A stretch of 64,000 nt of DNA from an uncultured Candidatus Binatia bacterium. Its GTDB lineage: Bacteria > Desulfobacterota > Binatia > Bin18. The notes beneath the pieces were generated by a model. The model ran no database searches. It had not been told where the DNA came from and was given only the letters and a program-made list of their open reading frames with translations. The translations under genes were made by a program, and so were the position numbers. Shown in pieces: positions 35,507 to 59,644 of the stretch; the first letter of the stretch is position 1; each line of letters opens with the position of its first letter. The stretch covers positions 553,917 to 617,916 of the forward strand of contig OZ243961.1 of assembly GCA_965214605.1 (NCBI GenBank), read 5' to 3'.

Positions 35507-37687
35507 ATGGCCGACGTAGCTGCTCACATCCCCAGCGTGCACACCTACCGCACCCAGGGTGGGATTGATATTCGTCGCAGCATTGAAAGTATCCCACTTC
35601 AGGACGCTATCGAGCCAATCATTGACGGTCTCAATAGTCAGCGCGGCGTCCTTTTGGCGTCAAGCTATGAGTATCCGGGCCGCTATACACGCTGGGACAT
35701 CGGCTTTGTCAATCCCCCCCTATCCCTGAGCTGTCGACAACGAAAATTTCGGCTGTCGGCCCTAAACGAACGCGGCCAGATTCTCCTGCCAGGGCTAGCG
35801 CGGGCATTTGAGGCCCTGCCCGTACTCGCCTCGTCTGAGCGTAACGAGAGTCACATATCAGGCACGGTTCGGGAGGTGGAGAGCCGTTTTGCCGAAGAGC
35901 AACGCAGCAAACAGCCCTCGATCTTTTCGCTGCTCCGAGCGCTCATTGAGCTGTTTGCGTCGGATGAGGACGCCAATCTTGGGCTGTATGGCGCCTTTGG
36001 CTATGATCTGGCCTTTCAGTTCGAACCCCTGCGCCTTCACCTCACCCGCCCCGAAGAGCAACGCGACCTGGTGTTGTATATTCCCGATGAACTAATCGTG
36101 GTTGACCACCGCCGCGAACAGGCGCTGCGCTATCGCTACGATTTCGAGCTTGACGGGCGCTCCACCTACAATTTGCCCCGGGTTGGAACGAGCCAACCCT
36201 ACCAGGGAACAGGTACCGTTGCTCAGGCCTGCGACCATCAACCGGGTGAATACGCCGAAGGCGTTCGGGTGGCCCGCCAAGCATTCCAGCGCGGCGACCT
36301 GTTTGAGGTCGTGCCGGGTCAGACCTTTTTTGAGGTCTGTCCTACGCCGCCCTCAGAACTGTTTCGACGTCTGCGTGAGCGCAATCCATCCCCGTACGGA
36401 TTTCTGATCAACCTCGGCCAAGCCGAATACCTAGTTGGCGCGTCCCCCGAGATGTACGTCCGGGTGGAGGGCGACCGGGTGGAGACCTGCCCGATTTCCG
36501 GCACAATCGCCCGCGGTCGGGATCCGATCAACGATGCCAGCCAAATCTTGCGGCTGCTCAACTCCCGCAAAGACGAGTCTGAGCTGACCATGTGTACAGA
36601 TGTTGACCGCAACGATAAATCCCGGATCTGTCAACCGGGTAGCGTACGGGTGATTGGGCGGCGACAGATTGAGATGTATTCGCGACTGATTCACACGGTC
36701 GATCATGTTGAGGGTCGCCTACGGCCCGAGTTTGATGCCCTGGATGCGTTTTTGGCCCACACCTGGGCGGTGACGGTCACCGGTGCGCCAAAAGCGTGGG
36801 CCATGCAGTTTATTGAGGAGCACGAAAAATCACCCCGCGCCTGGTACGGCGGGGCCGTCGGTCTGCTCGGCTTTAATGGCAATATGAATACAGGGCTCAC
36901 CCTGCGTACGATTCGGCTCAAAGACGGCGTGGCCCAAGTCCGAGCCGGGGCCACCCTGTTATACGACTCCAACCCGGACGATGAAGAACGCGAAACCCAT
37001 ATCAAAGCGTCTGCCTTCTTGGATGCTATTCGTCGCCCGAGTGAAAGCCAAGGCGAGCGGTCGTTGGAAGTCGCTAGCCCAGGCCGGGGTAAACGGATTC
37101 TGCTAGTCGATCATCAAGACTCTTTTGTGCATACCTTGGCCAACTATTTGCGTCAGACCGGGGCCGAGGTCTTGACCCTCCGAGCCGGTTTTTCGCACCA
37201 TGAATTTGAGGCCCGGCAACCTGACCTCGTCGTCCTGTCGCCCGGTCCAGGCCAACCGTCGGATTTTGATGTTTCCGGCACTTTGGCGGCCGTACTTGAA
37301 CGCCAGCTGCCCGTTTTTGGCGTGTGTCTCGGTTTACAGGGTATTGTCGAGCACTTCGGCGGCGAACTGTCCGTGCTGCCTTACCCAATGCATGGCAAAG
37401 CGTCAGCCGTGCGGGTGGTGGGCGGACGGATTTTTGAGGGCCTCCCGCGCGAGCTCACGGCAGGCCGCTATCACTCTCTGTTCGCCCGCAAAGACCGGCT
37501 GCCCTCCCAACTCCACATCACCGCGGAGAGCGATGATGGTGTGATCATGGCGGTTGAGCACCGTGAGCTGCCGATTGCCGCTGTCCAGTTTCATCCCGAG
37601 TCTATTTTGACTCTGGATGAAGACTATGGCCTGCGCCTGATGTATAACGTGGTAGTCAGCCTATGCGCCGACGCAGGCCTTCCCTAG
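35507..37687 (+). CDS. trpE: anthranilate synthase, fused component I/II TrpE(G)
   Basis: 726 aa; N-terminus matches rhizobial-type TrpE(G) (GGIDIRRS...SYEYPGRYTRWDIGFVNPPL); C-terminal class-I glutamine amidotransferase (GVCLGLQG). Confidence 0.85.
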   Translation: MADVAAHIPSVHTYRTQGGIDIRRSIESIPLQDAIEPIIDGLNSQRGVLLASSYEYPGRYTRWDIGFVNPPLSLSCRQRKFRLSALNERGQILLPGLARAFEALPVLASSERNESHISGTVREVESRFAEEQRSKQPSIFSLLRALIELFASDEDANLGLYGAFGYDLAFQFEPLRLHLTRPEEQRDLVLYIPDELIVVDHRREQALRYRYDFELDGRSTYNLPRVGTSQPYQGTGTVAQACDHQPGEYAEGVRVARQAFQRGDLFEVVPGQTFFEVCPTPPSELFRRLRERNPSPYGFLINLGQAEYLVGASPEMYVRVEGDRVETCPISGTIARGRDPINDASQILRLLNSRKDESELTMCTDVDRNDKSRICQPGSVRVIGRRQIEMYSRLIHTVDHVEGRLRPEFDALDAFLAHTWAVTVTGAPKAWAMQFIEEHEKSPRAWYGGAVGLLGFNGNMNTGLTLRTIRLKDGVAQVRAGATLLYDSNPDDEERETHIKASAFLDAIRRPSESQGERSLEVASPGRGKRILLVDHQDSFVHTLANYLRQTGAEVLTLRAGFSHHEFEARQPDLVVLSPGPGQPSDFDVSGTLAAVLERQLPVFGVCLGLQGIVEHFGGELSVLPYPMHGKASAVRVVGGRIFEGLPRELTAGRYHSLFARKDRLPSQLHITAESDDGVIMAVEHRELPIAAVQFHPESILTLDEDYGLRLMYNVVVSLCADAGLP

Positions 37688-37808
37688 CAGACGCCCCACA
37701 GTCGCGTCGCTGGGCAGAGGCAGGCCGCACGGATTGCCAGGCGACCCGACTCACTCCGGCTCGGTCACCGGGGTCCAGGCAGCCACTCCCGGCACCGCAA
37801 CGAGCAGG
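37599..37808. repeat. direct repeat copy A (3' end of trpE(G) plus 3' end of an MFS-like frame), ~85% identical to 41678..41886
   Basis: direct sequence comparison in this window. Confidence 0.8.
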
Positions 37809-38300
37809 TCCCAGAATGCGGCTGGTTCGTCGAGGTCGAAAATCAGTGGGGGAATGCTGGGGCCGTGGCGGTGGATGTGCCACTCCAAACCGGTGGTAAA
37901 AGCGATACGGGCATCGAACCCGGTGGTTTCCCTGATGATTTGAGCCGCGTGTTTCGTGTCGCTGAGGTTGCCTGACGGCTGACACCTCAGCAGTATGGCC
38001 GGTGTGCCGCCGGAGTATAGTGTGTAACTTCCCGGGTGCTCTGGCGACGGTTCGCGATGCGCAGCGGTGAATCCAATGGCGTCCAGTATGGGATTGATGA
38101 CGGCTTCTTGGGTGATGCCTGTCGAACGTTGCAGGTTGATGTCGCGCTGAGCGGCGGCGTTCTGGGCGTCGGCGATGGTCTGAGTCAGTGCCGCGCGGTG
38201 CGCTTCGGCGCGATGCTTCGCATCGTCTTGATGGTGTGATCTTCGTGCATTGTCCCTTTTGCTCCTTCGCTTCCAGTGGACTCGTGATGTAGTAGTGACG
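37753..38300 (-). pseudogene. restriction-endonuclease-like (HsdR N-terminal/Mrr-like) domain ORF lacking a canonical start
   Basis: frame with no ATG reads ...INPILDAIGF...AILLRCQPSGNLSD...IAFTTGLEWHIH..., resembling the type I R-subunit N-terminal domain family; C-terminally in-frame with the MFS-tail copy VAVPGVAAWTPVTEPE. Confidence 0.3.
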
Positions 38301-38764
38301 CCGGCAGTCCTGCCGTATCACAGGCGCATAACGATTCGCAAAAATCCCAGGCGCCGATTCTGTGCTTGCGCTCCGATCGGCGCCGGCTTGATACCTTCCC
38401 TTGGGGTCGGCGACTCTTTGCCTTCGTCTTGCTCTTGTGCTGTTCTGAGCAGCGGAATCGCCTGATTCTATGGTTGCCGGTACCGGGGGATGGTACAGTT
38501 TTGGCCGCGGCAGGACGGGCAAGTCGAAGGCTGGGGCGGTCTGTCTGTCCTGCCGGGTCTGTCGGTTGCGCTCTCTTTGCCAATATCCGTAGCAGATCCG
38601 TCGTTGGCAGACTGCGCAGCGTGGGCCGGCTGGGTCGGCATGGTCGGCTATTGGGGCAGGTGTGGCAGATGATGATGTCGTCGGCTATATGTCCTCTCTG
38701 GTAGGGCTGTGCAAAGGCTATCCGGGTCATGCAGTGTGTGGACGAATTGAGTGCGAGCTTCGGA

Positions 38765-39935
38765 AACGGTTTTCGTTTGGCTCGCGGCGGCACGGCAGTT
38801 GCTCTGGTTTACGGAGGGCGGGATTGCGTGCTCCCGGGATGGCGTCACGCGGGGATTGCATCCCCCTCTCATCTCCAGCTAGTATCCGCAACAGGGGGGC
38901 ATCGCCCATGCCCAAGAGGTTTGAGGACACGACGAGATCCATGATCCGCCCCGTGCAGACGTCAAAATCAATGAACCTGAACTTGGTGCGCCGGCCTGTT
39001 CCGGCAACTCAACGCGCAGCAACCGCTCAGCGTTTCGCACGGCAAACAGCGCAGCAACCTGCGCGCTAGGACGGAGAGAACGACCATGAGCGCTACACTG
39101 AGCCCCGCAGAACGCGCCCGCTTTCTCCAGGCGCTGAAGGAGGACTCCGACTTCCGCGAGGCGGTACGCCAGCACCTCCTGAGCGACGCACTGCTGGAAC
39201 TGCCGGAAAAATTCGCCCAGTTCGCCGCCTACGTCAACGAATTTATCGCCAACACCAACGAATTTATCGCCAACACCAACAAATTTATCGCCGACCAAAA
39301 GGCATTCAATACCCGCACCGAAGAACGCCTGGACCGGATTGACGACCGTCTGGACCGTGTTGAAGGCCGTCTGGACCGTGTTGAAGGCCGTCTGGACCGT
39401 GTTGAAGGCCGTCTGGACCGTGTTGAAGGCCGTCTGGACCGGATTGACAACCATCTGGACCGGATTGACAACCGGCTGGACCGGATTGACGACAGCATCG
39501 GCATCCTGAAAGGCAACGCAGCGCGACGTCTGCTCAGAGATCACCTCGAAGGCGTCCTAGAACTCGTAGGCGTAGAGGATTTCGTAAGAATCCTGTCCAG
39601 CAGCGACCTGATTCGCCTGATGCGCACCTCAGGCATGGCTCGCGAGATACCCTACGGAGAACGGCGGAGTTTCTATGCCGCCGATCTGGTCATCGAAGCC
39701 GCCGACGCAACGGGTGCCCCCTGTTATATCACGGCCGAGGGGTCCTTCACCGCGGATAAGCGGGACAGCAGCCGGGCGATTCGGAATGCCGCATTCCTGA
39801 CCCGGCTTACCGGCCACCCGGCCTCCCCTGTCGTTGCCAGCATGAGGAACGACTACGAAGTGCAAGAGCTGGTCAATCAGGAAACCATCCGCTGGTTCCA
39901 GCTGGACGAGCGGGACCTCGAAGCGGATTAGGACG
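38765..39935. repeat. tandem duplication unit 1 (~1.2 kb: 320-bp leader plus repeat-protein gene)
   Basis: near-identical to 39995..41095 apart from internal 21-bp repeat copy number. Confidence 0.8.
39086..39931 (+). CDS. hypothetical protein with variable heptad (21-bp) tandem repeats and conserved C-terminal domain, copy 1
   Basis: 281 aa; (FIANTNE/K)x2 ... (RLDRVEG)x4 (RLDRIDN)x2 coiled-coil repeats; C-terminal ~150 aa identical to copy 2. Confidence 0.6.
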   Translation: MSATLSPAERARFLQALKEDSDFREAVRQHLLSDALLELPEKFAQFAAYVNEFIANTNEFIANTNKFIADQKAFNTRTEERLDRIDDRLDRVEGRLDRVEGRLDRVEGRLDRVEGRLDRIDNHLDRIDNRLDRIDDSIGILKGNAARRLLRDHLEGVLELVGVEDFVRILSSSDLIRLMRTSGMAREIPYGERRSFYAADLVIEAADATGAPCYITAEGSFTADKRDSSRAIRNAAFLTRLTGHPASPVVASMRNDYEVQELVNQETIRWFQLDERDLEAD

Positions 39936-39994
39936 TGATACGATCGCCGTGCCGCGGCCAGCCAAATTCCAGCAAGTGCTTATAGCACCGGTTC

Positions 39995-41095
39995 GCTTTG
40001 GCCAGCGGTTTTCGTTTGGCTCGCGGCGGCACGGCAGTTGCTCTGGTTTACGGAGGGCGGGATTGCGTGCTCCCGGGATGGCGTCACGCGGGGATTGCAT
40101 CCCCCTCTCATCTCCAGCTAGTATCCGCAACAGGGGGGCATCGCCCATGCCCAAGAGGTTTGAGGACACGACGAGATCCATGATCCGCCCCGTGCAGACG
40201 TCAAAATCAATGAACCTGAACTTGGTGCGCCGGCCTGTTCCGGCAACTCAACGCGCAGCAACCGCTCAGCGTTTCGCACGGCAAACAGCGCAGCAACCTG
40301 CGCGCTAGGACGGAGAGAACGACCATGAGCGCTACACTGAGCCCCGCAGAACGCGCCCGCTTTCTCCAGGCGCTGAAGGAGGACTCCGACTTCCGCGAGG
40401 CGGTACGCCAGCACCTCCTGAGCGACGCACTGCTGGAACTGCCGGAAAAATTCGCCCAGTTCGCCGCCTACGTCAACGAATTTATCGCCAACACCAACGA
40501 ATTTATCGCCAACACCAACAAATTTATCGCCAACACCAACAAATTTATCGCCAACACCAACAAATTTATCGCCAACACCAACGAATTTATCGCCGACCAA
40601 AAGGTCTTCAATGCCCGCACCGAAGAACGCCTAGACCGGATTGACGACAACATCGGCATCCTGAAAGGCAACGCAGCGCGACGTCTGCTCAGAGATCACC
40701 TCGAAGGCGTCCTAGAACTCGTAGGCGTAGAGGATTTCGTAAGAATCCTGTCCAGCAGCGACCTGATTCGCCTGATGCGCACCTCAGGCATGGCTCGCGA
40801 GATACCCTACGGAGAACGGCGGAGTTTCTATGCCGCCGATCTGGTCATCGAAGCCGCCGACGCAACGGGTGCCCCCTGTTATATCACGGCCGAGGGGTCC
40901 TTCACCGCGGATAAGCGGGACAGCAGCCGGGCGATTCGGAATGCCGCATTCCTGACCCGGCTTACCGGCCACCCGGCCTCCCCTGTCGTTGCCAGCATGA
41001 GGAACGACTACGAAGTGCAAGAGCTGGTCAATCAGGAAACCATCCGCTGGTTCCAGCTGGACGAGCGGGACCTCGAAGCGGATTAGGACGTGATA
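39995..41095. repeat. tandem duplication unit 2
   Basis: see unit 1. Confidence 0.8.
40325..41086 (+). CDS. hypothetical protein with variable heptad tandem repeats, copy 2
   Basis: 253 aa; (FIANTNE/K)x5 and no RLDRVEG block; otherwise identical to copy 1. Confidence 0.6.
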   Translation: MSATLSPAERARFLQALKEDSDFREAVRQHLLSDALLELPEKFAQFAAYVNEFIANTNEFIANTNKFIANTNKFIANTNKFIANTNEFIADQKVFNARTEERLDRIDDNIGILKGNAARRLLRDHLEGVLELVGVEDFVRILSSSDLIRLMRTSGMAREIPYGERRSFYAADLVIEAADATGAPCYITAEGSFTADKRDSSRAIRNAAFLTRLTGHPASPVVASMRNDYEVQELVNQETIRWFQLDERDLEAD

Positions 41096-41677
41096 CGACC
41101 GCCGTGCCACCGCATATTTGCCGGCTGGCGCCACCACCGGACAAGTGAGCGGTGCCAGCCGTTCCCGAAACGGCCGCGCAGTTGCCGGAACCACCCCTGC
41201 GATTTCGCGGGTGTCTCAAATAATCAGACTGAATTTCAGGAGACATCACTATTCAGCGCTGAGTCGCGAGGTCTAGCCCGTAGCGTTCCGCTGATTGTGC
41301 CGTCGGGAGACTGCTCGGCCGGGGAGGCGCTGGCGAGCTGTGGTTCGGGGAGGCTGTCGCCATCGGCGAACATCCAGACCACATCAATGGGGTAGGCGTT
41401 GTTGGTGAGTACCACGTTGCGCAACGCCGTCTTGAGGTCCTCGGGCACCATATCGCGGCGTCCGTGCTGATAGGGGCGCCGGGATGAGAGCCGGGGCCGC
41501 CTACTGTGGCGTGTGTCCTTGTTTGGGGACGACGAGGAGTGTCGGGGGGAGAGGCGTGGAGTGCCTGTGGGCAAAATCTCTCGCTTTGATGCCGGGGGGG
41601 CCGGCGGGCTGCCCCGTTTGGGTGGCTGGGGACTGCCCGCGGACTGCCGGGCCGGCGATTAGGTGATGAGCCCGCCG

Positions 41678-41886
41678 AGTCTATTGTGACTCTGGATGAA
41701 GACGATGGCCTGCGCCTGAGGTATAACGGGAGCGCTGGCCGAGGCGCCGCCGCCGGCCTTCCCCGGCAGACGGCCCCCAGGCGCATCGCCGGGCAGAGAC
41801 AGGCCACACGGATTGCCCGGCGCCCCGCCTCACTCCAACTCGGTCACCGGGGTCCAGGCAGCCACTCCCAACACCGCAACGATCAT
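41678..41886. repeat. direct repeat copy B (degraded trpE(G) 3'-end copy plus the authentic MFS 3' end)
   Basis: aligns to 37599..37808; trpE tail reads VTLDEDDGLRLRYNGSAG... instead of LTLDEDYGLRLMYNVVVSLCADAGLP*. Confidence 0.8.
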
Positions 41887-43107
41887 CAGCCCGCTGGTGG
41901 CCGCGCAGGTGAGAAGAGGGCCGAGCCAATCGACCAGGACCCCAGCCAGCGGCGCCCCGATCAGGCCGGTCGTTCCCATAAACCCGAGGGTGTAGACCGA
42001 CAGGATCCGAGCCCGGTGGGAGGGCCGCGCCTGCTCTTGGAACACCGTCCGGCCGGCGCTCATAAAAATAGAGGCGCTCGTCCCCCATACCCCCACCACT
42101 AGCAAGGCTCCCCAGAAGGGCAGGCCAAACGACAGACTGCCAATGCAGCCGGCCCCGACGACCAGTGCCGTCACTTGGGCTCGTCCCTTACGCCGGATCC
42201 CACCGCGCCACAGGATGGTCCCTGCGCCAAAGATCGTGCCTAGTGGAAAGGCCATATTGAGCGTGGCGAGCTGAGCCACGTCGCCGCCATAGAAGTCCCG
42301 GACCAGCAACGGCAGGACGACCAGATAGGGACCGATAAAGCCGACCCCGACCACCATCACCAGTAACTGGAGTGGACGTAGGACCGGCGACCCAAAGACC
42401 TCCCGAACGCCCGCAACAAGGTCGCTCAGGCGAGCCCGCGTCTGCCCTGCTGTACTGCGTAACGATGGGGGGGGAAGTTTGCGCAACGTGGGCGCTCCAG
42501 CCAGCAAAACGAGCCCATGCATACACAGGGCCGGGACAATCCCCAGCCAACGCGCGCTGCCGGCCAAGAGCGCCCCCAGTGCTTGCGATGCCCACTGCGT
42601 CAGCGTCATACCAGCAACCGCCCGGAGCATGTTCGGTCCGGCAACTTCTGACAGCAGGGCGTCACGTGCCGGCATGGCAAACGCCTGCACCGTGCCCATA
42701 CCCAGGGCATAGCCAATCAGCAGGCTCATCGACAGCCAGCCCTTGGCCACAACGGCCACCAAACACCCGGACAGGGTGGCGGCGACGAGGTGTAGCCCAA
42801 TCAATAGCGTCCGACGATCGTTGCGGTCGGCCACCATCCCGCCGAGCAGAACCAGCAGGGTCGAGGGCAGCATGAGCGCGCTCTGGGCAATACCGACCCA
42901 ATCGGCATCGGCCTGCAAAACGCCGACAACCAACCATGAAAACAACACGCCCTGCATGCCAAAGGCGGTAAACCACGAGCCAAGGCCGGCCACGAACCAC
43001 AGGTAGAAGACCGGTTGCGAAGATGAGGAGGTTATGACCCGCCGCCCGGCGAGGGCGGGATGTGCTTGTTCATCGACCGTGAGTTTAACCGGGGGTGAGC
43101 TTGGCAC
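41830..43107 (-). CDS. MFS transporter
   Basis: 12-TM pattern, 425 aa. Confidence 0.75.
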   Translation of the reverse strand: MPSSPPVKLTVDEQAHPALAGRRVITSSSSQPVFYLWFVAGLGSWFTAFGMQGVLFSWLVVGVLQADADWVGIAQSALMLPSTLLVLLGGMVADRNDRRTLLIGLHLVAATLSGCLVAVVAKGWLSMSLLIGYALGMGTVQAFAMPARDALLSEVAGPNMLRAVAGMTLTQWASQALGALLAGSARWLGIVPALCMHGLVLLAGAPTLRKLPPPSLRSTAGQTRARLSDLVAGVREVFGSPVLRPLQLLVMVVGVGFIGPYLVVLPLLVRDFYGGDVAQLATLNMAFPLGTIFGAGTILWRGGIRRKGRAQVTALVVGAGCIGSLSFGLPFWGALLVVGVWGTSASIFMSAGRTVFQEQARPSHRARILSVYTLGFMGTTGLIGAPLAGVLVDWLGPLLTCAATSGLMIVAVLGVAAWTPVTELE

Positions 43108-50013: not shown

Positions 50014-50805
50014 TCAATCCAGCCCGGTATAATCAAACTCCATCGGCGTGATATCCCCCGCCGTGATCGCTCGAATCCGCTCAGCCGACAGCGGATAGCT
50101 GAACTGCTCGTTGCGCATATGGAGGCGCTGGAGCAGGATTTTGCCGACCATGTCGACAATCTCTTGCCATTCGGTCGGAGATAGCTGCTGCTGAGCCAGG
50201 CCCACATAGCCGGCCCGCATATGTCCAATCTCGTCGTTGTAGACCTGCTCGCAGGCCCTGGCGATACGGTTATTGAGCTGGCCCGAGCCGGCCAGCCGCA
50301 TACCGGCCGAGTACATACTACAGTAGCCGCCCTCAGTAAAACGCACGGCAAAATAGCCCAAGCGACCCCGCTGCTCGCGATATTCATAGCGCAGACGGGC
50401 CAGTTCGTCGTCAGACTGCCAGCCAACCAACGCGTGCGGGTTCAGCTTCTCCCCACTCAGCCAGTCATAGATATCGGCAAACAGGCAGTAATGGGCAAAC
50501 TCCGTGCGCAGATCGTCAATAACGTCAAGCACGGTGTGGCGATCAACCTGGAGGTCGATTTTATCAAAGACCTCGCTCAGATAGGCAACCGGTCCCTGAA
50601 ACAGCCCTTTTTTCTTATCCCCAACCCCAGAGCCCCAAATCTCCTTAAAACACTGGCGGCGTAGCCACACCAGATCAGTATCGGGCGTCCGCATTGGGCT
50701 CTGAAAATACGTCCACACCACCTCGGCCTCACCCGCCCAGTAGGGCGCGGCGAGATCGACCAAACGTTTGAGCTGAGGATTAATCTGCCGTTTGGCATTC
50801 ATCAT
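50014..50805 (-). CDS. hypothetical ferritin-like/diiron-type protein with two ExxH motifs
   Basis: EFAH...EIGH spacing typical of diiron carboxylate proteins; last gene of the thiolase operon; start uncertain (50805 or 50859). Confidence 0.4.
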   Translation of the reverse strand: MMNAKRQINPQLKRLVDLAAPYWAGEAEVVWTYFQSPMRTPDTDLVWLRRQCFKEIWGSGVGDKKKGLFQGPVAYLSEVFDKIDLQVDRHTVLDVIDDLRTEFAHYCLFADIYDWLSGEKLNPHALVGWQSDDELARLRYEYREQRGRLGYFAVRFTEGGYCSMYSAGMRLAGSGQLNNRIARACEQVYNDEIGHMRAGYVGLAQQQLSPTEWQEIVDMVGKILLQRLHMRNEQFSYPLSAERIRAITAGDITPMEFDYTGLD

Positions 50806-50818
50806 TTTCTTCCGTCGT

Positions 50819-51517
50819 TCATGGCTCGGCATTCCGATCAATCTCATCTCCCAGCTCACAAATCCCCTGATAGAATAGCTTGCAGCCCGTCAGCGCCAGT
50901 TCCATCCCGTCCAGCACTTCCTGACGTTCATGCTCCGTGGCGACATGCCGGGAGATTGGCTCCCAGACCTTCCGTCCGGCGTGATCGTCATCGGCCTTGG
51001 TGTGGTAGGTAAAGAAGAACACCTGCTCATCGTTCAGATCATAGGTCTGCTTCCAGGCCTCGGCCCGAAAATTATGCGCGCCCTGCATAGCGGTGAGGAT
51101 AAACTCATCGACTGAGGTGGCTAACCAGCCAGCCACCCAGTGCCGCGTGCGGGCAAGGTGCTCCCACACACTCAGGGCCACATTGACCAGGGGAACGGGC
51201 CGGGTGGTGTCCATCTGTTCGTTGGTGAGACCGACGTTGCGGCCCATCTCCCACAGCAGTGTGGTGTGGGGCTGGGCAATCTGATCGTCATACACCAGCT
51301 CTTCACGCATCTGACCGATGGTTTTACGGACAACGGCCAGGTCTGGACAGCGACTGATCCAGGCTGGTCGAATGACTGCGCTAAACAGCCGATTGCGCAG
51401 AATATGCTGTAGGATGAAGGCCTGCCCGCGCCCGGGTGTCAAAGGCTCGACCAACCACGGGACTTGGGGAGCGGTTTCAAGGGCACGTTTGCAGATTTCG
51501 TCAACAATAGTGTTCAT
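50819..51517 (-). CDS. heme-oxygenase-like fold protein (TenA/PqqC/CADD family)
   Basis: 232 aa all-helical; conserved YHTKADDDHAG block of the TenA/PqqC-like iron-containing redox enzyme family. Confidence 0.5.
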   Translation of the reverse strand: MNTIVDEICKRALETAPQVPWLVEPLTPGRGQAFILQHILRNRLFSAVIRPAWISRCPDLAVVRKTIGQMREELVYDDQIAQPHTTLLWEMGRNVGLTNEQMDTTRPVPLVNVALSVWEHLARTRHWVAGWLATSVDEFILTAMQGAHNFRAEAWKQTYDLNDEQVFFFTYHTKADDDHAGRKVWEPISRHVATEHERQEVLDGMELALTGCKLFYQGICELGDEIDRNAEP

Positions 51518-52696: not shown

Positions 52697-53948
52697 GACT
52701 TCTCCCTTCTGCAACAGCTGTCGTGTTCCCCCCTACTAGCAGCTTGGACAAGAGCCATGACCAACGTCGCAATCCCTGCCCCTTGCAGCCGCAAAGCCCG
52801 CTACCACTGCGCCTTTGTGGCCGGGTGGTCATCGTCTGTCTGAGACGCTTCTCCGATAGCTCTGGCTCTGGCTTCGGCCTGACACTAGTCCATCCCGGTC
52901 TTTTACAACTCTTTGGCTCTAGTCCGTGTGTCAAAAGCCATGACTTGGCTCTCCCCTTTCCTGCCCAATATACCCCCTATTAAGGAAGAAAACAGCGGGG
53001 AAAACTTTGCTATCTCACCTTAAACACCTATAGGGAGGTATTGTCTGATTGCCAGGCATGTCAAGCCGCGGCCTGCTTGCCTCGCCCCCAGCCTCTCCCG
53101 CGCCGGGAGGGGGGAAAGCCTCCGCCTACAGCAGGTGAAATTGGCACAGTACTCTGGCCACCTCCGGATCGCTACGCTGTTCTAACGCCCAGAACACCTC
53201 TCTCAGCTCCTCCAACCGCAGGCGGTTGCCGCTGAGGTCATCTTCCAGGCTCCCCACCTGCCTGCGCAAAGGTCCAACTCATCGTTCGTCGGTTCCGCAG
53301 CACAAAGCCTCTGCTAAGCCGCCACGAGTGTGCTACAGGCACTCTAGTAGCCTCAGGGTCAACTGAAATTGGCGGGCAAACCGTGCGGCCATGTCCTCCC
53401 GCAGTTGGTGAGAACGCCTAGCCGTATCGGTCCAGAGTTGCTCATTCTGTTGGGCCCGCAGCTGGCCCATCTCCGCCGGCAACCGACCGATGTCTCCACG
53501 CAATTGCTGGGACCGCGTCCGCCAACCCCGCTTGTCGGGCTTCGAGTCGTATCAGACGCCTCGGTCAAGGTCGGGGATAGCTCTCCGGGGCGGGCAAGAA
53601 CACTATGACCAAAACCCCCGGGAGGAAGGATTAACTCATGGCGGCATTCAAGGTCGGATGCCGGAAATGTCAAGTCATGTGGAAAAGGGGATCAGCCTGA
53701 CTCGACTGACGGGGCCGTTATGGCATCCACAGCTTCTCCTCAGCAGGGGTAAGCCAAGGCGGCATAATATCGAAAGGGGCGAGCCAGCAACCGCAGCGGC
53801 TCGGTCCCCCCTCCCCTCCTCTCTCCAAGGGGAGGAAAGTGCAGACGGAGACACGACTCGCCAGCGGCTCAATTCCTGGTCTTGCTTGTTTCAAATCCCA
53901 TGTCTAGGCTGTGTTGGGAAAGCTCTTCAGCAGACGAATAGGAGAGAT

Positions 53949-56900
53949 ATGAGACGACAACATCACAGTGGTCAGAACGCTCGTGACTGGCGGCGCCAAA
54001 TAGCAGCCTCTGCGGAGAAACAACAAGAAAGCGTCTTCACATATAAGTTTGGACTGAGCATACAAGAGGGAGATTTAGACTTTGCCGCGGCCACTCGAAC
54101 CTACGACATCACCGAAGGGATTTTATGCGGGAGCTTAATCGGCTTGATATGCGCTGTGCATCTGTCCGGGTTTCGCCTATTTTCCAAGAGCGGGGAGACA
54201 CGCCAGTTCCGAAATCGAAGTCGATATCCCGAAGACGCATTCACCAAGGCGTTCCGCGCTCATACGGAAATCATAAACCCTGACATTACGATTCAGTCAA
54301 TTGAGGCTGTCTTCGCCGCACCTCCGCGAAAGAAAATAGCCTGGTCAGCGGACACCCTTGGGAAGCGGCTGTTTCAAACCTGGAACAATCGCTCCCCAAA
54401 AGACGCAGAGAGAGAGCACCCAGAATTTTTACTGGCCCAGGGAATCGCTTGCGAAGTCGCCAAACAGTTCTCCGGATGGAAGGAACTCGCCGACAATGTA
54501 AGCGGTGCACTGGCCTGCGCTGACAGATATCTGGCGACCCTGGGAGACTCCTTTCCAAAACTCAGTAACCTGCCACCCGGAACCACGATCAATCCAGACT
54601 CTTGTACGCTTGCCTACGATCCCGAATCGCCCTTCGTTGAGATGGTTGGTAACGAAGAAAACTGGCTCCATCAGGTAGTGGCGGTTTGTGCTGGCAGGCT
54701 GAAACGAGACATGCCCGATCGTGACCTATCCTCGTCTGATTTTGCAAAGCGTCTGAACGACGCTGTTGTTACTAGTCAGCACAATGGACTGTCTTGGTTA
54801 TTCGGCAACGGCCTACGCTACCTTCGGAAATCAAGCATTGAGCGGATTACCGAAAACCTTGATGTTCCACACGGGAAGCGCCAACGAGTTGAACAACTCA
54901 AAGCCTTTGCCGACGCGCTTCCTGACAATCCATTTTTCGACACCAATGGCTATGCCGAGTTTCGTACCTCCGTCGGTGGCAAGATCGCCTCATGGGTCTC
55001 GAACTACTGGAAGCGCATTTGCGAACTTGCGACGTTGCATTCTCAGCCGCCGGATATCGCTATTCCCGAAACGCTGCAAGATCCCGATAACGCCTTTCTG
55101 TTTTCTGGTCAGCACACCAACGCTGCCGGCCTCATAGACCTCTCTAATCGCATCCCTGAGCGGGTCAAAAAAGCCGGCAATGCGCTTGTTGTTCTGCGTG
55201 GAAGTTGTATTCCTGGACCGGAAGATATCGCCGTCGTTGAATCCGTTGCCGATGAGATGACCGAACTCACTGGGCAACTCTCCATGCTCGACAACCGCAT
55301 TCGGCAGGAAACCGAACGCGCCAAAGACGCCGAAAACGAAAAACGTGCCAAGGTCCTAGAATCCCTCAGGCCAAACATTCCCAAAGGTCTCAAGGATCTG
55401 CCCAAACTAAACAGCATATCAGGCGGCACCGTGGACGCTACCGGTGAGATCAAACGGCTGGAAGCCGACCTGAACTCCGTCATACGAGCACGCCGTGAGC
55501 ACTTCCGGCAACTCTCTGAATGGGCGGACAGTAACGCAGGCGGCCTTGATCCCCTGCCCATCCTTAAAGAACGCGAACAAGAGGCGCTTTCCGACCGAAA
55601 CATGGACCTCGATTGTGCAGCTGAATACGCTATCCGGCGTCTGCTTGATCGCATCGGCGTCATGTCGCATCGACTGTCGCCAAGTGTAGCCGAGCAAATC
55701 CGGACCGCCATGACGCCGCTTTTTCGCAGGAAAAAAGAGGCAAACCGCTACTTCTACAATCGCAACGGCAGGATCTATCGGCATCCCTTCAGCACCTCAC
55801 GTCACCAGGCTTATGCCATAGACGTAGAGCGTGCCCACGCAACCGATTGGCTCTTGTGGTTGGAGGAGCGGACGACAGAAATCCGTAACGCTCTGCGCGC
55901 GGATCAGACACGCCTACGCGATCTTCTGTTGATGGAAGCTTTTGTCCTGACGACACGGCTCGGCGGTCTCTCTGATCGTGTACCGGGGGATCTGGCGAAA
56001 CCGGAAAACGACTGTCTCAACATTCCTCCCCTGCTCAAAGCGCAGCTCGAGGCTAGGGAGGTTTCGCGCGATGTGGCCGTGCGCGCCTTCAATCTGTTCA
56101 ATAGTGCTATCAATGGTCTGTCGTTTCGCGCCTTCCGTGATAGTTTCATTGTTCGCGTTAAGTTTCAGCGCCAAGATCGCGAAGAAGTATTTTATGTCCC
56201 GAAGGAACGCCCCTGGCAGGCACCAGCTGACTATGATTCAGCCAAGGGTGAGATATCTAAGGGCTTGAAGCTCTCCGCAGTCGTGCGTGACCAAACCGGG
56301 GCTGTTCTGCCGCGTGAGACAGCCAAGGGCTTGAGTAAGGCGAAGTTTCCCGAGCCGGGTACGCGTGCCCTGCTGCGTCAATCGCCTCATGACTGGTTCG
56401 TCGAACTCGATGTCCGCTCTACCCAGGCTTCGGAGTTGGCAGGGCTGCCCGTCAAGAAGAACAAAGACGGACTCAAGCGCTGGAAAGTCCTGAAAAAGCC
56501 GGCCTTTCGACTAGTCGGGCCGCCCTCGTTCAAGACGCAGCTCGACCGCGCTCTGACAAGCGGAGAGGTGAAGCTCGGCGACTACACGCTCATCATTGAC
56601 CAGCTCTTCAAACAGTCCTTGTACGTCGAAGGTGAGGAGATACACCTTTTGGCTGAACCGGTAAAGATTCGGGCAGAACTGGCGGTTCCAGTAATAGACA
56701 ACCGGCCGTATCCCAAGTCTGAAACCGACTTGATATTTAACAAGATCGTTGCCATAGACCTTGGCGAGCGACGGGTCGGCTACGCGGTCTTCTCGCTCAT
56801 AGACTTCGTGGAAAACGGTTGCCAAAATCCGATCAAGGTGGGGAGCGTCGCCATTCCCGCTTTCAGGAAACTGATGGCCGCGGTCCGCCGCCACCGCGGG

Positions 56901-57734
56901 TCGCGGCAGCCCAACCAGAAGGTCGACCAAACCTACTCGAGAGCGCTGATGCAGTTCCGAGAAAACGTGGTGGGAGACGTCTGCTCTCGCATTGAGACCT
57001 TGTGCGAATACTTCGGCGGATTTCCCGTACTCGAAAGTTCGGTGGGAAATTTCGAGACAGGGGGCCGCCAGCTGGAGATGATCTATGGTTCAGTCCTGCG
57101 CCGCTACACTTTCTCCGAAGTGAAAGCCCATAAAGCCACCCGTAGCCATCATTGGTTCACAGCGGACACCTGGAAGCATCCCTACGTCTACACCTACACC
57201 TACACCTGGAATAAGAGAGAAAAGCAATATTCCGGCCCATCCAAGCCGCTGAAGATATTCCCCGGCGTCACGATCAACCCGGCCGGCACCAGCCAGACTT
57301 GCCAGCATTGTAAGCGGAATGCCCTTCAGGCGCTGCGTAACATGACGGACAAGGTCGAAGTGGGAGAAGACGGCCGCGTAGTCCTCGGAAACGGGACGAT
57401 ACGGCTTCTCGAACGAGCCGATTATCTTCCTTCCGAACGAAGAAAATTTCGTCACAACAAAGCAAGGCCGCCGCTAAACGTGCCTGCCCAGAAAGGATCC
57501 CGGCTAAGCCGCGACATCACGCGTATCGCCAGACGAAACATGCGGCAACCCCCATCTTCCACAATGTCACCCGATACCACACAGTCTCGCTTCAAATGCG
57601 TGTACGTTGACTGCGGCTATGAGGGGCATGCCGACGAAAATGCCGCAATTAACATCGGCCGGCGTTTTTTGGAACGGATCGATATGGAAACGTCGAGAGG
57701 GACGTGCCGGGACTTGACCGGGCAGCGAGAATGA
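53949..57734 (+). CDS. cas12: Cas12-family (type V) CRISPR effector, ~1261 aa
   Basis: C-terminal TnpB-like core: RuvC-I IVAIDLGERRVGYAV, RuvC-II VLESSVGNFE, Zn-finger CQHCKRN...CVYVDCGY, RuvC-III GHADENAAINIGRRF; large N-terminal REC-like region; SD GGAGAG before the ATG at 53949; upstream part of the 53490 ORF looks non-coding. Confidence 0.75.
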   Translation: MRRQHHSGQNARDWRRQIAASAEKQQESVFTYKFGLSIQEGDLDFAAATRTYDITEGILCGSLIGLICAVHLSGFRLFSKSGETRQFRNRSRYPEDAFTKAFRAHTEIINPDITIQSIEAVFAAPPRKKIAWSADTLGKRLFQTWNNRSPKDAEREHPEFLLAQGIACEVAKQFSGWKELADNVSGALACADRYLATLGDSFPKLSNLPPGTTINPDSCTLAYDPESPFVEMVGNEENWLHQVVAVCAGRLKRDMPDRDLSSSDFAKRLNDAVVTSQHNGLSWLFGNGLRYLRKSSIERITENLDVPHGKRQRVEQLKAFADALPDNPFFDTNGYAEFRTSVGGKIASWVSNYWKRICELATLHSQPPDIAIPETLQDPDNAFLFSGQHTNAAGLIDLSNRIPERVKKAGNALVVLRGSCIPGPEDIAVVESVADEMTELTGQLSMLDNRIRQETERAKDAENEKRAKVLESLRPNIPKGLKDLPKLNSISGGTVDATGEIKRLEADLNSVIRARREHFRQLSEWADSNAGGLDPLPILKEREQEALSDRNMDLDCAAEYAIRRLLDRIGVMSHRLSPSVAEQIRTAMTPLFRRKKEANRYFYNRNGRIYRHPFSTSRHQAYAIDVERAHATDWLLWLEERTTEIRNALRADQTRLRDLLLMEAFVLTTRLGGLSDRVPGDLAKPENDCLNIPPLLKAQLEAREVSRDVAVRAFNLFNSAINGLSFRAFRDSFIVRVKFQRQDREEVFYVPKERPWQAPADYDSAKGEISKGLKLSAVVRDQTGAVLPRETAKGLSKAKFPEPGTRALLRQSPHDWFVELDVRSTQASELAGLPVKKNKDGLKRWKVLKKPAFRLVGPPSFKTQLDRALTSGEVKLGDYTLIIDQLFKQSLYVEGEEIHLLAEPVKIRAELAVPVIDNRPYPKSETDLIFNKIVAIDLGERRVGYAVFSLIDFVENGCQNPIKVGSVAIPAFRKLMAAVRRHRGSRQPNQKVDQTYSRALMQFRENVVGDVCSRIETLCEYFGGFPVLESSVGNFETGGRQLEMIYGSVLRRYTFSEVKAHKATRSHHWFTADTWKHPYVYTYTYTWNKREKQYSGPSKPLKIFPGVTINPAGTSQTCQHCKRNALQALRNMTDKVEVGEDGRVVLGNGTIRLLERADYLPSERRKFRHNKARPPLNVPAQKGSRLSRDITRIARRNMRQPPSSTMSPDTTQSRFKCVYVDCGYEGHADENAAINIGRRFLERIDMETSRGTCRDLTGQRE

Positions 57735-58897: not shown

Positions 58898-58958
58898 ATA
58901 TGTCCTCAGTAAGAAAATCGAAAAATCATTGTAATATAAATATTTATCTGGTATACCT

Positions 58959-59623
58959 CCAGTTCTGAAGGGGAATTAGAGGCCGAAAAATATGAGTTCT
59001 GAAGGGGAATTAGAGGGTGTGGAGCATGACGCAATCCAGTTCTGAAGGGGAATTAGAGGCTGAAATACGGGCGTTCCTCCAGTTCTGAAGGGGAATTAGA
59101 GGTTCTCAACAGCATGAGGAGTCCAGTTCTGAAGGGGAATTAGAGGTTCTCAACAGCATGAGGAGTCCAGTTCTGAAGGGGAATTAGAGGTTCTCAACAG
59201 CATGAGGAGTCCAGTTCTGAAGGGGAATTAGAGGTTCTCAACAGCATGAGGAGTCCAGTTCTGAAGGGGAATTAGAGGTTCTCAACAGCATGAGGAGTCC
59301 AGTTCTGAAGGGGAATTAGAGGTTCTCAACAGCATGAGGAGTCCAGTTCTGAAGGGGAATTAGAGGTTCTCAACAGCATGAGGAGTCCAGTTCTGAAGGG
59401 GAATTAGAGGTTCTCAACAGCATGAGGAGTCCAGTTCTGAAGGGGAATTAGAGGTTCTCAACAGCATGAGGAGTCCAGCAGGGGAATTAGAGGTTCTCAA
59501 CAGCATGAGGAGTCCAGTTCTGAAGGGGAATTAGAGGCACGCGCATGACGCACCCCCCAGTTCTGAAGGGGAATTAGAGGATGGAAGGCTTCGGGCTGCC
59601 CAGTTCTGAAGGGGAATTAGAGG
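58959..59623 (+). CRISPR. CRISPR array, 16 repeats of 24 nt (CCAGTTCTGAAGGGGAATTAGAGG) with 18-20 nt spacers; AT-rich leader at 58898..58958
   Basis: period 43-44 bp; 6 distinct spacers, one present in 10 tandem copies; second repeat lacks 5' CCA; one repeat is truncated (59475..59493). Confidence 0.85.
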
Positions 59624-59644
59624 CAGGGAGGGAGGGCTGGAATC

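What the first reader, a model, noticed from the sequence alone, without database searches (positions are those of the whole stretch)
38765..41095. Tandem 1.2-kb duplication of a gene whose internal 21-bp (heptad) repeats differ in copy number between the two copies
Two head-to-tail units share an identical 320-bp leader, N-terminus and 150-aa C-terminal domain. The coding repeats differ between the copies. Copy 1 has (FIANTNE/K)x2 followed by (RLDRVEG)x4 and (RLDRIDN)x2. Copy 2 has (FIANTNE/K)x5 and no RLDRVEG block. The C-terminal domain (YAADLVIEAADATGAPCYITAEGSFTADKRD) has spacing reminiscent of PD-(D/E)XK nuclease folds. The result is a pair of paralogues with length-variable coiled-coil stalks, as seen in phase- or antigenic-variation or defence-specificity systems. 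The repeats could equally be a recent slippage artefact.
Basis: seen in the sequence. Interest (0 to 1): 0.65.

Follow-up and report, generated by a model that had tools for sequence, protein, structure and literature searches.

The report
Tandem coiled-coil nuclease-fold genes, variable stalks
Two freshly duplicated neighbouring genes encode a rod-shaped protein with a nuclease-like head, and they belong to a large unnamed bacterial family whose rod length changes quickly but only in whole seven-residue steps; what the protein does is still unknown.

Summary
Two head-to-tail units (38767-40005 and 40006-41108) carry ORFs of 281 aa and 253 aa. They are 100% identical over 526 nt (leader plus N-terminus) and over 448 nt (the whole C-terminal domain). 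They differ only in two in-frame 21-nt repeat arrays, giving 13 versus 9 heptads.

This is a local case of a family-wide rule. The genes belong to a family of at least 1,700 clusters at 50% identity, with no Pfam, NCBIfam, PADLOC or PHROG model, seen here mostly in Chloroflexota. Each member has a conserved ~43-aa N-terminal cap, one continuous coiled coil and a ~143-aa C-terminal domain.

Stalk length fell in one residue class modulo 7 in 191 of 203 proteins (18-249 aa). It varies even within 90%-identity clusters. Repeat periods in nine loci are all multiples of 21 nt.

The mechanism of variation (slippage filtered for heptad phase) is well supported. The function is inferred only, probably an oligomeric nucleic-acid-targeting protein. 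ON/OFF phase variation and antigenic variation are not supported.

The parts
37596..37806 (+). Direct repeat, copy A. It holds the last 92 nt of the trpE/G fusion gene (35507-37687), the downstream spacer, and a dead copy of the 3' end of the convergent MFS gene. It marks the left border of the ~3.9-kb inserted segment.
   Evidence: It is 85% identical over 211 nt to 41675-41885. The trpE/G and MFS identities come from Pfam.
38767..39085 (+). Leader of unit 1, 319 nt. It is duplicated with the gene and has a GGAGAG Shine-Dalgarno-like site 8-9 nt before the ATG.
   Evidence: It is 100% identical to 40006-40324. No Rfam family matched. It is not conserved at nucleotide level upstream of homologues in other loci.
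39086..39931 (+). Gene copy 1, 281 aa. It has an N-terminal cap (aa 1-43), a 95-aa coiled-coil linker (13 heptads + 4) and a C-terminal PD-(D/E)XK-fold domain (aa 139-281, nt 39500-39928).
   Evidence: ORF. It equals database protein P0001. Heptad parse. Fold assignment.
39235..39292 (+). Array A in copy 1: 21-nt units encoding FIANTNE/K, 2.8 copies.
   Evidence: TRF result.
39320..39493 (+). Array B in copy 1: 21-nt units encoding RLDR(V/I)(E/D)x, 8.3 copies. Four units (CGTCTGGACCGTGTTGAAGGC) are identical at DNA level.
   Evidence: TRF result, repeat listing, sequence.
39946..39966 (-). Inverted copy (19 of 21 nt) of the first bases of the leader (TTTGGCTCGCGGCGGCACGGC). It pairs with 40015-40035 in a long hairpin across the junction.
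   Evidence: One search found 3 matches in the window against 0.02 expected. RNA fold of 39932-40050 gives -53.2 kcal/mol, z = -3.5.
39954..40005 (+). A 52-nt junction segment that matches neither the sequence upstream of unit 1 nor the sequence downstream of unit 2.
   Evidence: Alignment of the three borders and boundary check.
40006..40324 (+). Leader of unit 2.
   Evidence: It is 100% identical to 38767-39085.
40325..41086 (+). Gene copy 2, 253 aa. It has the same cap, a 67-aa linker (9 heptads + 4) and the same C-terminal domain (aa 111-253, nt 40655-41083). The conserved site residues are D172 (40838-40840), E190 (40892-40894) and S192 (40898-40900).
   Evidence: ORF. It equals database protein P0002. 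AF2 model has pLDDT 93.1. Invariant columns.
40474..40594 (+). Array A in copy 2: FIANTNE/K units, 5.8 copies. Array B is reduced to a single unit.
   Evidence: TRF result and heptad parse.
41087..41191 (+). 3' flank of copy 2, about 80% conserved with the flank of the closest homologue (P0003, Caldilineaceae MAG). It contains stem-loops.
   Evidence: blastn results. Fold is weak (z = -1.6).
41675..41885 (+). Direct repeat, copy B. It holds a displaced, decayed trpE/G 3' end plus the true 3' end of the MFS gene (41830-43107, minus strand). It marks the right border of the inserted segment.

Best explanation
**What is shown**

The locus is a very recent tandem duplication, or a pair kept identical by gene conversion. 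The duplicated unit is a stand-alone gene from a large, unnamed protein family. Each protein has three parts:

- a small conserved helical N-terminal cap;
- one continuous alpha-helical coiled-coil stalk;
- a conserved C-terminal domain with the PD-(D/E)XK restriction-endonuclease fold.

The stalk is encoded by near-perfect tandem DNA repeats whose periods are multiples of 21 nt. Repeat number differs between the two copies, between close relatives and across the family.

**What I infer about the variation**

The arrays expand and contract by replication slippage or unequal recombination. This happens much faster than point mutation. The two copies show 0 substitutions in 974 nt of non-repeat sequence, yet differ by about 10 repeat units spread over two arrays.

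Selection removes every product that breaks the heptad register between cap and head. The stalk therefore changes length only in steps of 7 residues, about 1 nm per step.

**What I infer about function**

The protein is a cytoplasmic homo-oligomeric rod. Its nuclease-fold heads bind a metal through the invariant Asp and Glu and act on, or bind, nucleic acid. The stalk sets the reach or spacing of the heads. The most likely role is in genome conflict (defence or mobile-element biology), not housekeeping.

Whether length variation is itself adaptive is open. The two copies differ by 4 heptads, about 4 nm of stalk.
For: **Duplication and arrays**

- establish the two units, the identical blocks and the repeat arrays.

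**Family size and lack of any model**

- 1,501 clusters at 90% identity with E <= 0.01.
- 1,725 clusters at 50% identity with E <= 0.001.
- Only coiled-coil noise in Pfam, NCBIfam, PADLOC and PHROGs.

**Fold**

- AF2 pLDDT is 93.1 for the full protein and 95.6 (pTM 0.89) for the domain alone.
- Foldseek ranks NucS/EndoMS first.

**Conserved site**

- D172, E190 and S192 are invariant in 121 diverse representatives.
- S167, F168, R198, D199, R202, R205 and N206 are at least 90% conserved.

**Heptad quantisation**

- The linker is congruent to 4 mod 7 in 68 of 68 proteins and in 191 of 203. Lengths run from 18 to 249 aa.
- The hydrophobic register is the same in both halves of 202 distinct linkers.

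**Fast, independent expansions**

- TRF periods in the nine homologous genes that gave arrays (eight loci, counting the window once) are 21, 42, 63, 84 and 147 nt.
- Unit identity reaches 100%.
- Unit sequences differ between lineages.

**Polymorphism among close relatives**

- 9 of 11 clusters at 90% identity hold members that differ by whole heptads. Examples are 88/95/102/109 and 25/32/60.

**Genomic behaviour**

- The gene stands alone in variable contexts. Neighbours include Druantia-like genes, SIR2, Fic, HEPN-MNT, methyltransferase plus UvrD, CRISPR and transposases. In other loci the neighbours are housekeeping genes.
- Several genomes carry more than one paralogue, and clustered or tandem paralogues occur elsewhere.
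Against: - The canonical catalytic lysine is missing. The motif is ExS, invariant across the family, so nuclease activity is not assured.
- No sequence-profile link to any characterised nuclease was found. hhalign against the NucS C-terminal domain gave 1.2% probability.
- No conserved partner gene was seen.
- No relative was found in 50,697 GenBank phage records. A scan of 2.9 million viral contigs with a single signature-motif pattern also found none.
- The defence-island association rests on about 15 loci and has no statistics. Three loci, including this window, sit among metabolic genes.
- The oligomeric state and the orientation of the chains were not modelled.
- Because the DNA unit is itself 21 nt, slippage alone yields whole heptads. 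The family-wide mod-7 rule therefore shows selection on register, but says nothing about selection on length.
Confidence: 0.55

Rival explanations
1. Neutral spacer drift. The protein works the same at any stalk length. Repeat-number differences, including those between the two copies, are mutational noise from slippage-prone DNA, filtered only for heptad phase. The tandem pair has no functional meaning.
For: - The length distribution is broad and continuous, from 18 to 249 aa.
- Variation occurs within 90%-identity clusters.
- The 21-nt DNA unit makes whole-heptad changes the default outcome.
- No partner or target was found whose geometry the length could match.
Against: - Arrays are repeatedly rebuilt from different unit sequences in different lineages, instead of decaying to a minimal stalk.
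- The two copies expanded different arrays in opposite directions while the remaining 974 nt stayed identical.
- A diverged tandem pair is retained in another lineage (L020).
- None of these points is decisive.
Confidence: 0.3
2. Catalytically dead scaffold. The nuclease fold has lost its lysine and serves only as a binding or oligomerisation module. The protein would then be a structural rod, such as a tether or cytoskeletal element, and not an enzyme.
For: - ExS replaces ExK in all 121 representatives.
- No profile similarity to active nucleases was found.
- A very long continuous helix dominates the model.
Against: - The two metal-ligand positions (D172, E190) are invariant.
- A set of charged residues on the following helix (R198, D199, R202, R205, N206) is at least 90% conserved over a family with 17% mean column identity. 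This pattern is typical of a working site.
- Active PD-(D/E)XK enzymes with a substituted lysine exist, for example BamHI (ExE) and BglII (ExQ). This point is from my own knowledge and was not tested here.
Confidence: 0.25
3. Assembly artefact. Two strain alleles that differ in repeat number were stitched head-to-tail by the metagenome assembler.
For: - The flanks are 100% identical and only the arrays differ. This is exactly how alleles in this family differ.
- The source appears to be a 4.31-Mb metagenome-assembled chromosome.
Against: - The junction carries a unique 52-nt segment containing an inverted copy of the leader start. That is not what a collapsed or expanded repeat looks like.
- Each unit has a complete leader.
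- Clustered and tandem paralogues occur in independent assemblies.
Confidence: 0.08
4. Selfish mobile gene. The unit, or the 3.9-kb segment between the 211-nt direct repeats, is a small mobile element, and the nuclease-fold protein promotes its own spread or duplication.
For: - The segment is bracketed by 211-nt direct repeats that duplicate the trpE/G-MFS junction.
- A 21-nt inverted repeat sits at the unit borders.
- The gene occurs in unrelated contexts in related genomes, with no synteny.
Against: - No integrase or transposase ORF or remnant lies in the segment.
- No leader, terminal repeat or flank is shared between loci.
- Unit 2 lacks the right-hand inverted repeat.
- The direct repeats are only 85% identical while the gene copies are identical. 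Insertion and duplication were therefore separate events.
Confidence: 0.1

Closest known systems
Prokaryotic PD-(D/E)XK endonucleases with N-terminal coiled-coil stalks, whose stalks Pfam groups as DUF3782 (noted in Hartmann et al., eLife 2016, PMC4786415)
   Same: The overall architecture is the same: an N-terminal coiled-coil stalk followed by a C-terminal PD-(D/E)XK-fold domain. Both are prokaryotic, and both are functionally uncharacterised.
   Different: - No DUF3782 hit appears in the Pfam output. Copy 2 gave a complete list at E <= 1 with no such hit. The lists for the other scanned members are truncated to the best 25 families.
- The C-terminal domain matches no Pfam family, even at E <= 10.
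- The motif is ExS, not ExK.
- The conserved N-terminal cap and the heptad-quantised, polymorphic stalk are not described in that paper.
NucS/EndoMS mismatch endonuclease (PDB 2vld, 5gke)
   Different: - The N-terminal half differs completely. NucS has a beta-barrel dimerisation and DNA-binding domain where this family has a cap plus coiled coil.
- K is replaced by S.
- By manual alignment, the QxxxY positions on the next helix read RxxxN.
- There is no profile similarity (hhalign 1.2%).
In-frame tandem-repeat length polymorphism in coiled-coil proteins (streptococcal M proteins, trimeric autotransporter stalks, chicken BG cytoplasmic tails built from 21-nt heptad exons, PMC5938342)
   Same: Heptad-encoding DNA repeats expand and contract and give alleles of different rod length.
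   Different: Those examples are surface or membrane proteins under immune or adhesion selection. This family is cytoplasmic, by my inspection of the sequence, and carries a nuclease-fold head.
Coiled-coil 'rulers' in nucleic-acid enzymes: the Type I restriction HsdS central repeats (EcoR124I versus EcoR124/3) and SMC/Rad50 arms with tuned lengths (my own knowledge, not tested here)
   Same: In these systems the number of helical repeats sets the distance between two DNA-contacting modules.
   Different: This family has no target-recognition domains, no HsdM or HsdR neighbours and no ATPase heads. The ruler idea is only a hypothesis here.

Membership tests
PD-(D/E)XK (restriction-endonuclease-like) superfamily | alpha-beta-beta-beta-alpha-beta core fold | tested here: met
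PD-(D/E)XK (restriction-endonuclease-like) superfamily | Catalytic signature: Asp at the start of strand 2 and (D/E)xK in strand 3 | tested here: not met
   D172 and E190 are present and invariant. The Lys position is an invariant Ser (S192) in 121 representatives. The motif is therefore a variant, D...ExS.
PD-(D/E)XK (restriction-endonuclease-like) superfamily | Sequence-profile match to a described family of the clan | tested here: not met
   Pfam gave no match for the isolated domain at E <= 10. None appeared in the reported hit lists (best 25 families) for the 170 members scanned. NCBIfam, PADLOC and PHROGs gave none.
PD-(D/E)XK (restriction-endonuclease-like) superfamily | Metal-dependent phosphodiester cleavage | not testable with these tools
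   This needs biochemistry.
NucS/EndoMS | N-terminal beta-barrel dimerisation and DNA-binding domain | tested here: not met
   Residues 1-133 are all helical in the model.
NucS/EndoMS | Sequence homology of the RecB-like C-terminal domain (D, ExK, QxxxY) | tested here: not met
   hhalign of the domain alignment A2 against the NucS alignment A6 gave probability 1.2%. The motif residues differ (NucS sequences).
DUF3782-type coiled-coil endonucleases (PMC4786415) | Coiled-coil stalk N-terminal to a PD-(D/E)XK domain | tested here: met
DUF3782-type coiled-coil endonucleases (PMC4786415) | Match of the stalk to Pfam DUF3782 (PF12644) | tested here: inconclusive
   Copy 2 gave a complete hit list at E <= 1 with no DUF3782. 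For the other members only the best 25 families are printed, and DUF3782 is not among them. No reference DUF3782 nuclease sequence was available for a direct comparison.
Contingency (ON/OFF phase-variable) loci | Repeat-unit changes that shift the reading frame or alter promoter spacing | tested here: not met
   All arrays in this window and in the eight other homologous genes that gave arrays have periods that are multiples of 21 nt and lie inside the ORF.
Known anti-phage defence systems (PADLOC-DB v2) | Profile match of the non-coiled-coil domains to a system component | tested here: not met
   Only the coiled-coil segments matched, to LmuB, JetC, PbeC and DruC. Short-stalk members gave no match.

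The most novel reading that the evidence does not exclude
The family may be an undescribed class of single-gene, rod-shaped nucleic-acid-targeting proteins in which the coiled-coil stalk acts as a rapidly evolving, heptad-quantised molecular ruler. Repeat slippage would retune the spacing or reach of two or more nuclease-fold heads. That would change what the protein can bind or cut, for example the distance between two half-sites or the separation of two DNA segments. Tandem paralogues of different length, as in this window, would give one cell two 'settings'. This would be a new way of diversifying specificity in genome-conflict systems. The variant D...ExS active site would be a new catalytic flavour of the PD-(D/E)XK fold.
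Probability: 0.18. Interest if true: 0.8.

Novelty: new variant of a known kind. Interest (0 to 1): 0.55.

Why it matters
- **An unnamed, well-defined family.** More than 1,700 sequence clusters share a confident fold and an invariant but non-canonical active-site motif. No database model or experimental study covers them. The family can now be defined, and at least one member is in a cultured organism (Thermomicrobium roseum DSM 5159).
- **An unusually clean natural experiment on coiled coils.** Stalks from about 3 to 35 heptads, built from unrelated repeat units, all keep one register between two conserved end domains. This shows that register is strongly constrained in nature while length is free or tunable.
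- **A possible new specificity mechanism.** If stalk length proves functional, the family would be a new example of repeat-driven specificity tuning in an intracellular nuclease-like protein.
- **If length is neutral.** The finding is then an ordinary though striking case of repeat instability.

Tried and rejected
**Searches that gave nothing useful**

It returned one true relative (L001) and five spurious coiled-coil matches (L002-L006).
- The exact look-up of P0001 returned no contig.
- The afdb50 fold library was unavailable.
- Rfam, the tRNA scan and the promoter scan of 37500-42000 found nothing credible. The two weak 'MIAT' hits and the one weak snoRNA hit are chance.
- The ORFs in 37688-39085 and 41087-41830 have no Pfam match and non-coding-like codon statistics. 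tblastx of these flanks against all loci gave only noise.
- PADLOC and PHROGs gave only coiled-coil matches.
- Phage GenBank records and IMG/VR viral contigs held no relatives.
- Four literature searches found no description of the family beyond the DUF3782 remark.
- The listing of cluster members gave no organism names.

**Ideas considered and dropped**

- NucS membership, because hhalign gave 1.2% probability.
- Phase variation, because all repeats are in frame.
- A third paralogue at 50014-50859, which has the same length of 281 aa, because tblastn found no similarity.
- A tRNA-like T-arm at 37908-37922, because no tRNA was found.
Full report
**1.

Self-comparison of the region gives two head-to-tail units. 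Positions 38767-39295 match 40006-40534 over 529 nt with one mismatch. Positions 39473-39953 match 40628-41108 over 481 nt with four mismatches.

A base-by-base check places every mismatch but one at the edges of the repeat arrays. The exception is 39944, downstream of the stop codon. As a result, 526 nt (38767-39292, the 319-nt leader plus codons 1-69) are identical, and so are 448 nt (39496-39943, the whole C-terminal domain).

The ORFs are 39086-39931 (281 aa) and 40325-41086 (253 aa). Tandem Repeats Finder reports 21-nt arrays at 39235-39292 (2.8 units) and 39320-39493 (8.3 units) in copy 1, and at 40474-40594 (5.8 units) in copy 2.

Written in heptads, copy 1 has 13 heptads + 4 residues between the N-terminal anchor and the GILKG motif. 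Copy 2 has 9 heptads + 4. Copy 1 expanded the RLDRxxx array and copy 2 expanded the FIANTNx array.

One detail was missed. The units do not abut exactly. A 52-nt segment (39954-40005) matches neither flank. It contains an inverted 19-of-21 copy of the first bases of the leader (3 matches against 0.02 expected). The junction can therefore fold into a hairpin of -53 kcal/mol (z = -3.5). I read this as filler from a template-switch type of duplication. That is an inference.

**2. The protein family**

Both proteins are already in the public protein collection as P0001 and P0002, from one 4.31-Mb contig. They have hundreds of full-length relatives, none with a domain annotation or any name other than 'hypothetical protein'.

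A profile of the C-terminal 147 residues finds 1,501 clusters at 90% identity. It finds 1,725 clusters at 50% identity with E <= 0.001, of which 305 are below 1e-30. The domain is always at the C-terminus.

The few named sources are Chloroflexi MAGs, a Caldilineaceae MAG and the megaplasmid of the cultured Thermomicrobium roseum DSM 5159. The last carries WP_012642843.1, a 429-aa 'hypothetical protein' with thirteen 14-residue RMERVEAQIEALTA units.

No library has a model for either conserved end. Pfam, NCBIfam, PADLOC and PHROGs return only generic coiled-coil matches on the stalk. The isolated C-terminal domain matches nothing in Pfam even at E <= 10.

**3. Architecture and fold**

AlphaFold2 with a 49-sequence alignment gives a confident model (pLDDT 93.1). 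It shows three short helices (residues 7-37), a single helix from 39 to 124, and then an alpha/beta domain. The domain modelled alone reaches pLDDT 95.6 and pTM 0.89.

At the level of sequence it is not a NucS. Profile-profile comparison with NucS C-terminal domains gives 1.2% probability.

In 121 diverse representatives the only invariant residues are D172, E190 and S192 (copy 2 numbering). S167, F168, A171, Y186, T194, R198, D199, R202, A203, R205, N206 and A207 are at least 90% conserved.

D172 lies immediately before strand 173-178 and E190-x-S192 at the end of strand 184-191. These are the canonical positions of D...(D/E)xK, with Ser in place of Lys. By manual alignment to the NucS sequences printed, R202 and N206 fall where NucS has the Q and Y of its QxxxY motif. 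This is my inference, not a structural superposition.

The pattern looks like a working but non-canonical site. Activity is unproven.

**4. The stalk behaves the same way across the whole family**

I measured the distance between the N-terminal anchor (ELLxLPxxF) and the GxLKG motif. It is congruent to 4 modulo 7 in 68 of 68 close relatives and in 191 of 203 proteins of the wider set. Lengths run from 18 to 249 residues. Several of the 12 exceptions are anchor mis-assignments or +4 'stutters'.

Over 202 distinct linkers the hydrophobic positions keep one register in both the N-terminal and the C-terminal half. Position a is N/I/L/V, d is Q/V/L, and g is Phe in 50% of cases. The stalk is therefore one continuous coiled coil.

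The repeat units differ between lineages:

- FIANTNE
- RLDRVEG
- EEQRAFN
- ERQEKFN
- a 21-residue FMARTEQFMADQQAINARFEQ unit
- a 14-residue unit in T. roseum

At DNA level the periods are 21, 42, 63, 84 and 147 nt in the nine genes (eight loci) where TRF found arrays. Unit identity reaches 100%. These are recent, independent expansions.

Members of single 90%-identity clusters differ by whole heptads in 9 of 11 clusters examined. Examples are linkers of 88/95/102/109, 88/95/102 and 25/32/60 residues. Repeat number is thus polymorphic between very close relatives.

In the window the contrast in rates is extreme. There are zero substitutions in 974 nt of unique sequence. Against that, one array differs by three units and the other by seven, in opposite directions.

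**5. Genomic setting**

The window around the pair is metabolic. It holds VKOR-DsbA, EthD, an acyl-CoA dehydrogenase, a GNAT, the trpE/G fusion, an MFS transporter and an enoyl-CoA hydratase.

The pair lies in a 3.9-kb segment bracketed by 211-nt direct repeats of 85% identity (37596-37806 and 41675-41885). These repeats duplicate the junction of the convergent trpE/G and MFS genes. This is the footprint of a Campbell-type or segmental insertion that predates the tandem duplication. The segment contains no recombinase gene or remnant.

In other genomes the gene stands alone, with no conserved neighbour and no conserved leader. The contexts seen were:

- between ilv and other metabolic genes (L023);
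- beside cytochrome oxidase and histidinol phosphatase genes (T. roseum);
- next to a Druantia-like helicase and DruA (L025);
- among SIR2, Fic, HigB and transposases (L024);
- among methyltransferases, UvrD and a Rep gene (L009);
- next to an Eco57I-type methylase and type I-C cas genes (L029);
- next to a DUF1156 methylase (L028);
- near type III CRISPR genes and a TnpB fragment (L007);
- near Fic (L013) and near HEPN-MNT (L017).

This suggests variable, conflict-rich regions, but the sample is small and uncontrolled.

Several genomes carry two or more paralogues. Second copies within 6 kb occur in L009 and L014/L015. L020 holds a diverged tandem pair. No relative was found in GenBank phages, and a single-motif scan of IMG/VR viral contigs found none.

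**6. Most likely explanation**

The following is shown:

- a very recent tandem duplication (or gene-conversion-homogenised pair) of a stand-alone gene;
- a stalk built of heptad-encoding DNA repeats, whose number differs between the copies, between close relatives and across the family;
- a family-wide constraint that keeps the cap, the coiled coil and the head in one heptad register;
- a PD-(D/E)XK-fold head with an invariant Asp/Glu pair.

The following is inferred:

- the arrays change by replication slippage or unequal recombination;
- the protein is a cytoplasmic homo-oligomeric rod whose heads bind metal and nucleic acid;
- stalk length sets the reach or spacing of those heads;
- its biology is genome conflict, not housekeeping.

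The four-heptad difference between the two copies corresponds to about 4 nm of coiled coil.

Three rivals remain open. First, length variation may be neutral. Second, the head may be catalytically dead. Third, and less likely, the tandem may be an assembly artefact, or the unit may be a mobile element.

**7. Comparison with what is known**

The nearest described thing is a remark by Hartmann et al. (eLife 2016, PMC4786415). They note that a family of prokaryotic PD-(D/E)XK endonucleases carries N-terminal coiled-coil stalks, which Pfam groups as DUF3782.

The architecture is the same. However, no DUF3782 or nuclease-family profile match was seen here. The catalytic motif also differs. The conserved cap and the quantised, polymorphic stalk are not described in that paper.

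NucS is the closest structure but fails the membership tests. In-frame heptad-repeat polymorphism is well known in surface proteins such as M proteins and autotransporter stalks, and in the cytoplasmic tails of chicken BG proteins. As far as my searches reached, it is not known for an intracellular nuclease-fold protein.

I therefore rate this a new variant of a known kind. It is of moderate interest as it stands. It would be of high interest if stalk length proved to tune specificity.

Noticed in passing
window 53490-57734 (+): A 1,414-aa ORF is a full-length Cas12c type V-C CRISPR effector (NCBIfam NF033950, 1,074 bits over model positions 1-1244 of 1246). In Pfam it shows only the C-terminal TNB zinc ribbon. 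It lies about 12 kb downstream of the finding.
   Followed up: partly
window 58958-59640: A CRISPR-like array has a ~25-nt repeat (CCAGTTCTGAAGGGGAATTAGAGG), a period of 43-44 nt and about 15 units. Nine consecutive units (59078-59473) carry the same 19-nt spacer, TTCTCAACAGCATGAGGAG, at 100% identity. Repeated identical spacers are unusual and may reflect repeat-spacer unit duplication.
   Followed up: no
window 37596-37806 and 41675-41885: A 211-nt direct repeat (85% identity) duplicates the end of the trpE/G fusion gene, the spacer, and the end of the convergent MFS gene. It brackets a 3.9-kb insert that carries no recombinase. About 960 nt (37807-38766) and 566 nt (41109-41674) of the insert have no credible ORF. 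In addition, 37750-39000 shows strong G/T skew on the + strand.
   Followed up: partly
window 39932-40050: The junction between the two units holds an inverted copy of the leader start. It can form a long hairpin of -53.2 kcal/mol (z = -3.5). This could be a footprint of a template-switch duplication, or an intergenic terminator or processing structure.
   Followed up: partly
L020 8070-8819 and 9039-9872: A distant subfamily (about 24% identity) occurs as a diverged tandem pair on the same strand, 220 nt apart. Both copies keep the cap, the coiled coil and the D...ExS motif. Retained tandem pairs hint at possible hetero-oligomers.
   Followed up: no
L025 5339-5509 and L029 5548-5700: A ~50-aa DUF5679 gene lies within 0.3-2.5 kb upstream of the family gene in two unrelated loci. 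This may be coincidence.
   Followed up: no
L009 3567-4028: A 153-aa gene consists of the C-terminal nuclease-fold domain alone, with no cap or stalk. It lies 6 kb upstream of a full-length paralogue. Many short, domain-only entries also appear in the family list. They may be fragments or a stalk-less form.
   Followed up: no
family-wide (202 distinct linkers): The coiled-coil core is unusual. Phe occupies position g in 50% of heptads, Asn is the commonest residue at a (28%) and Gln the commonest at d (31%). A g-a-d seam with polar a/d layers may indicate an oligomer higher than a dimer, or an antiparallel bundle.
   Followed up: no
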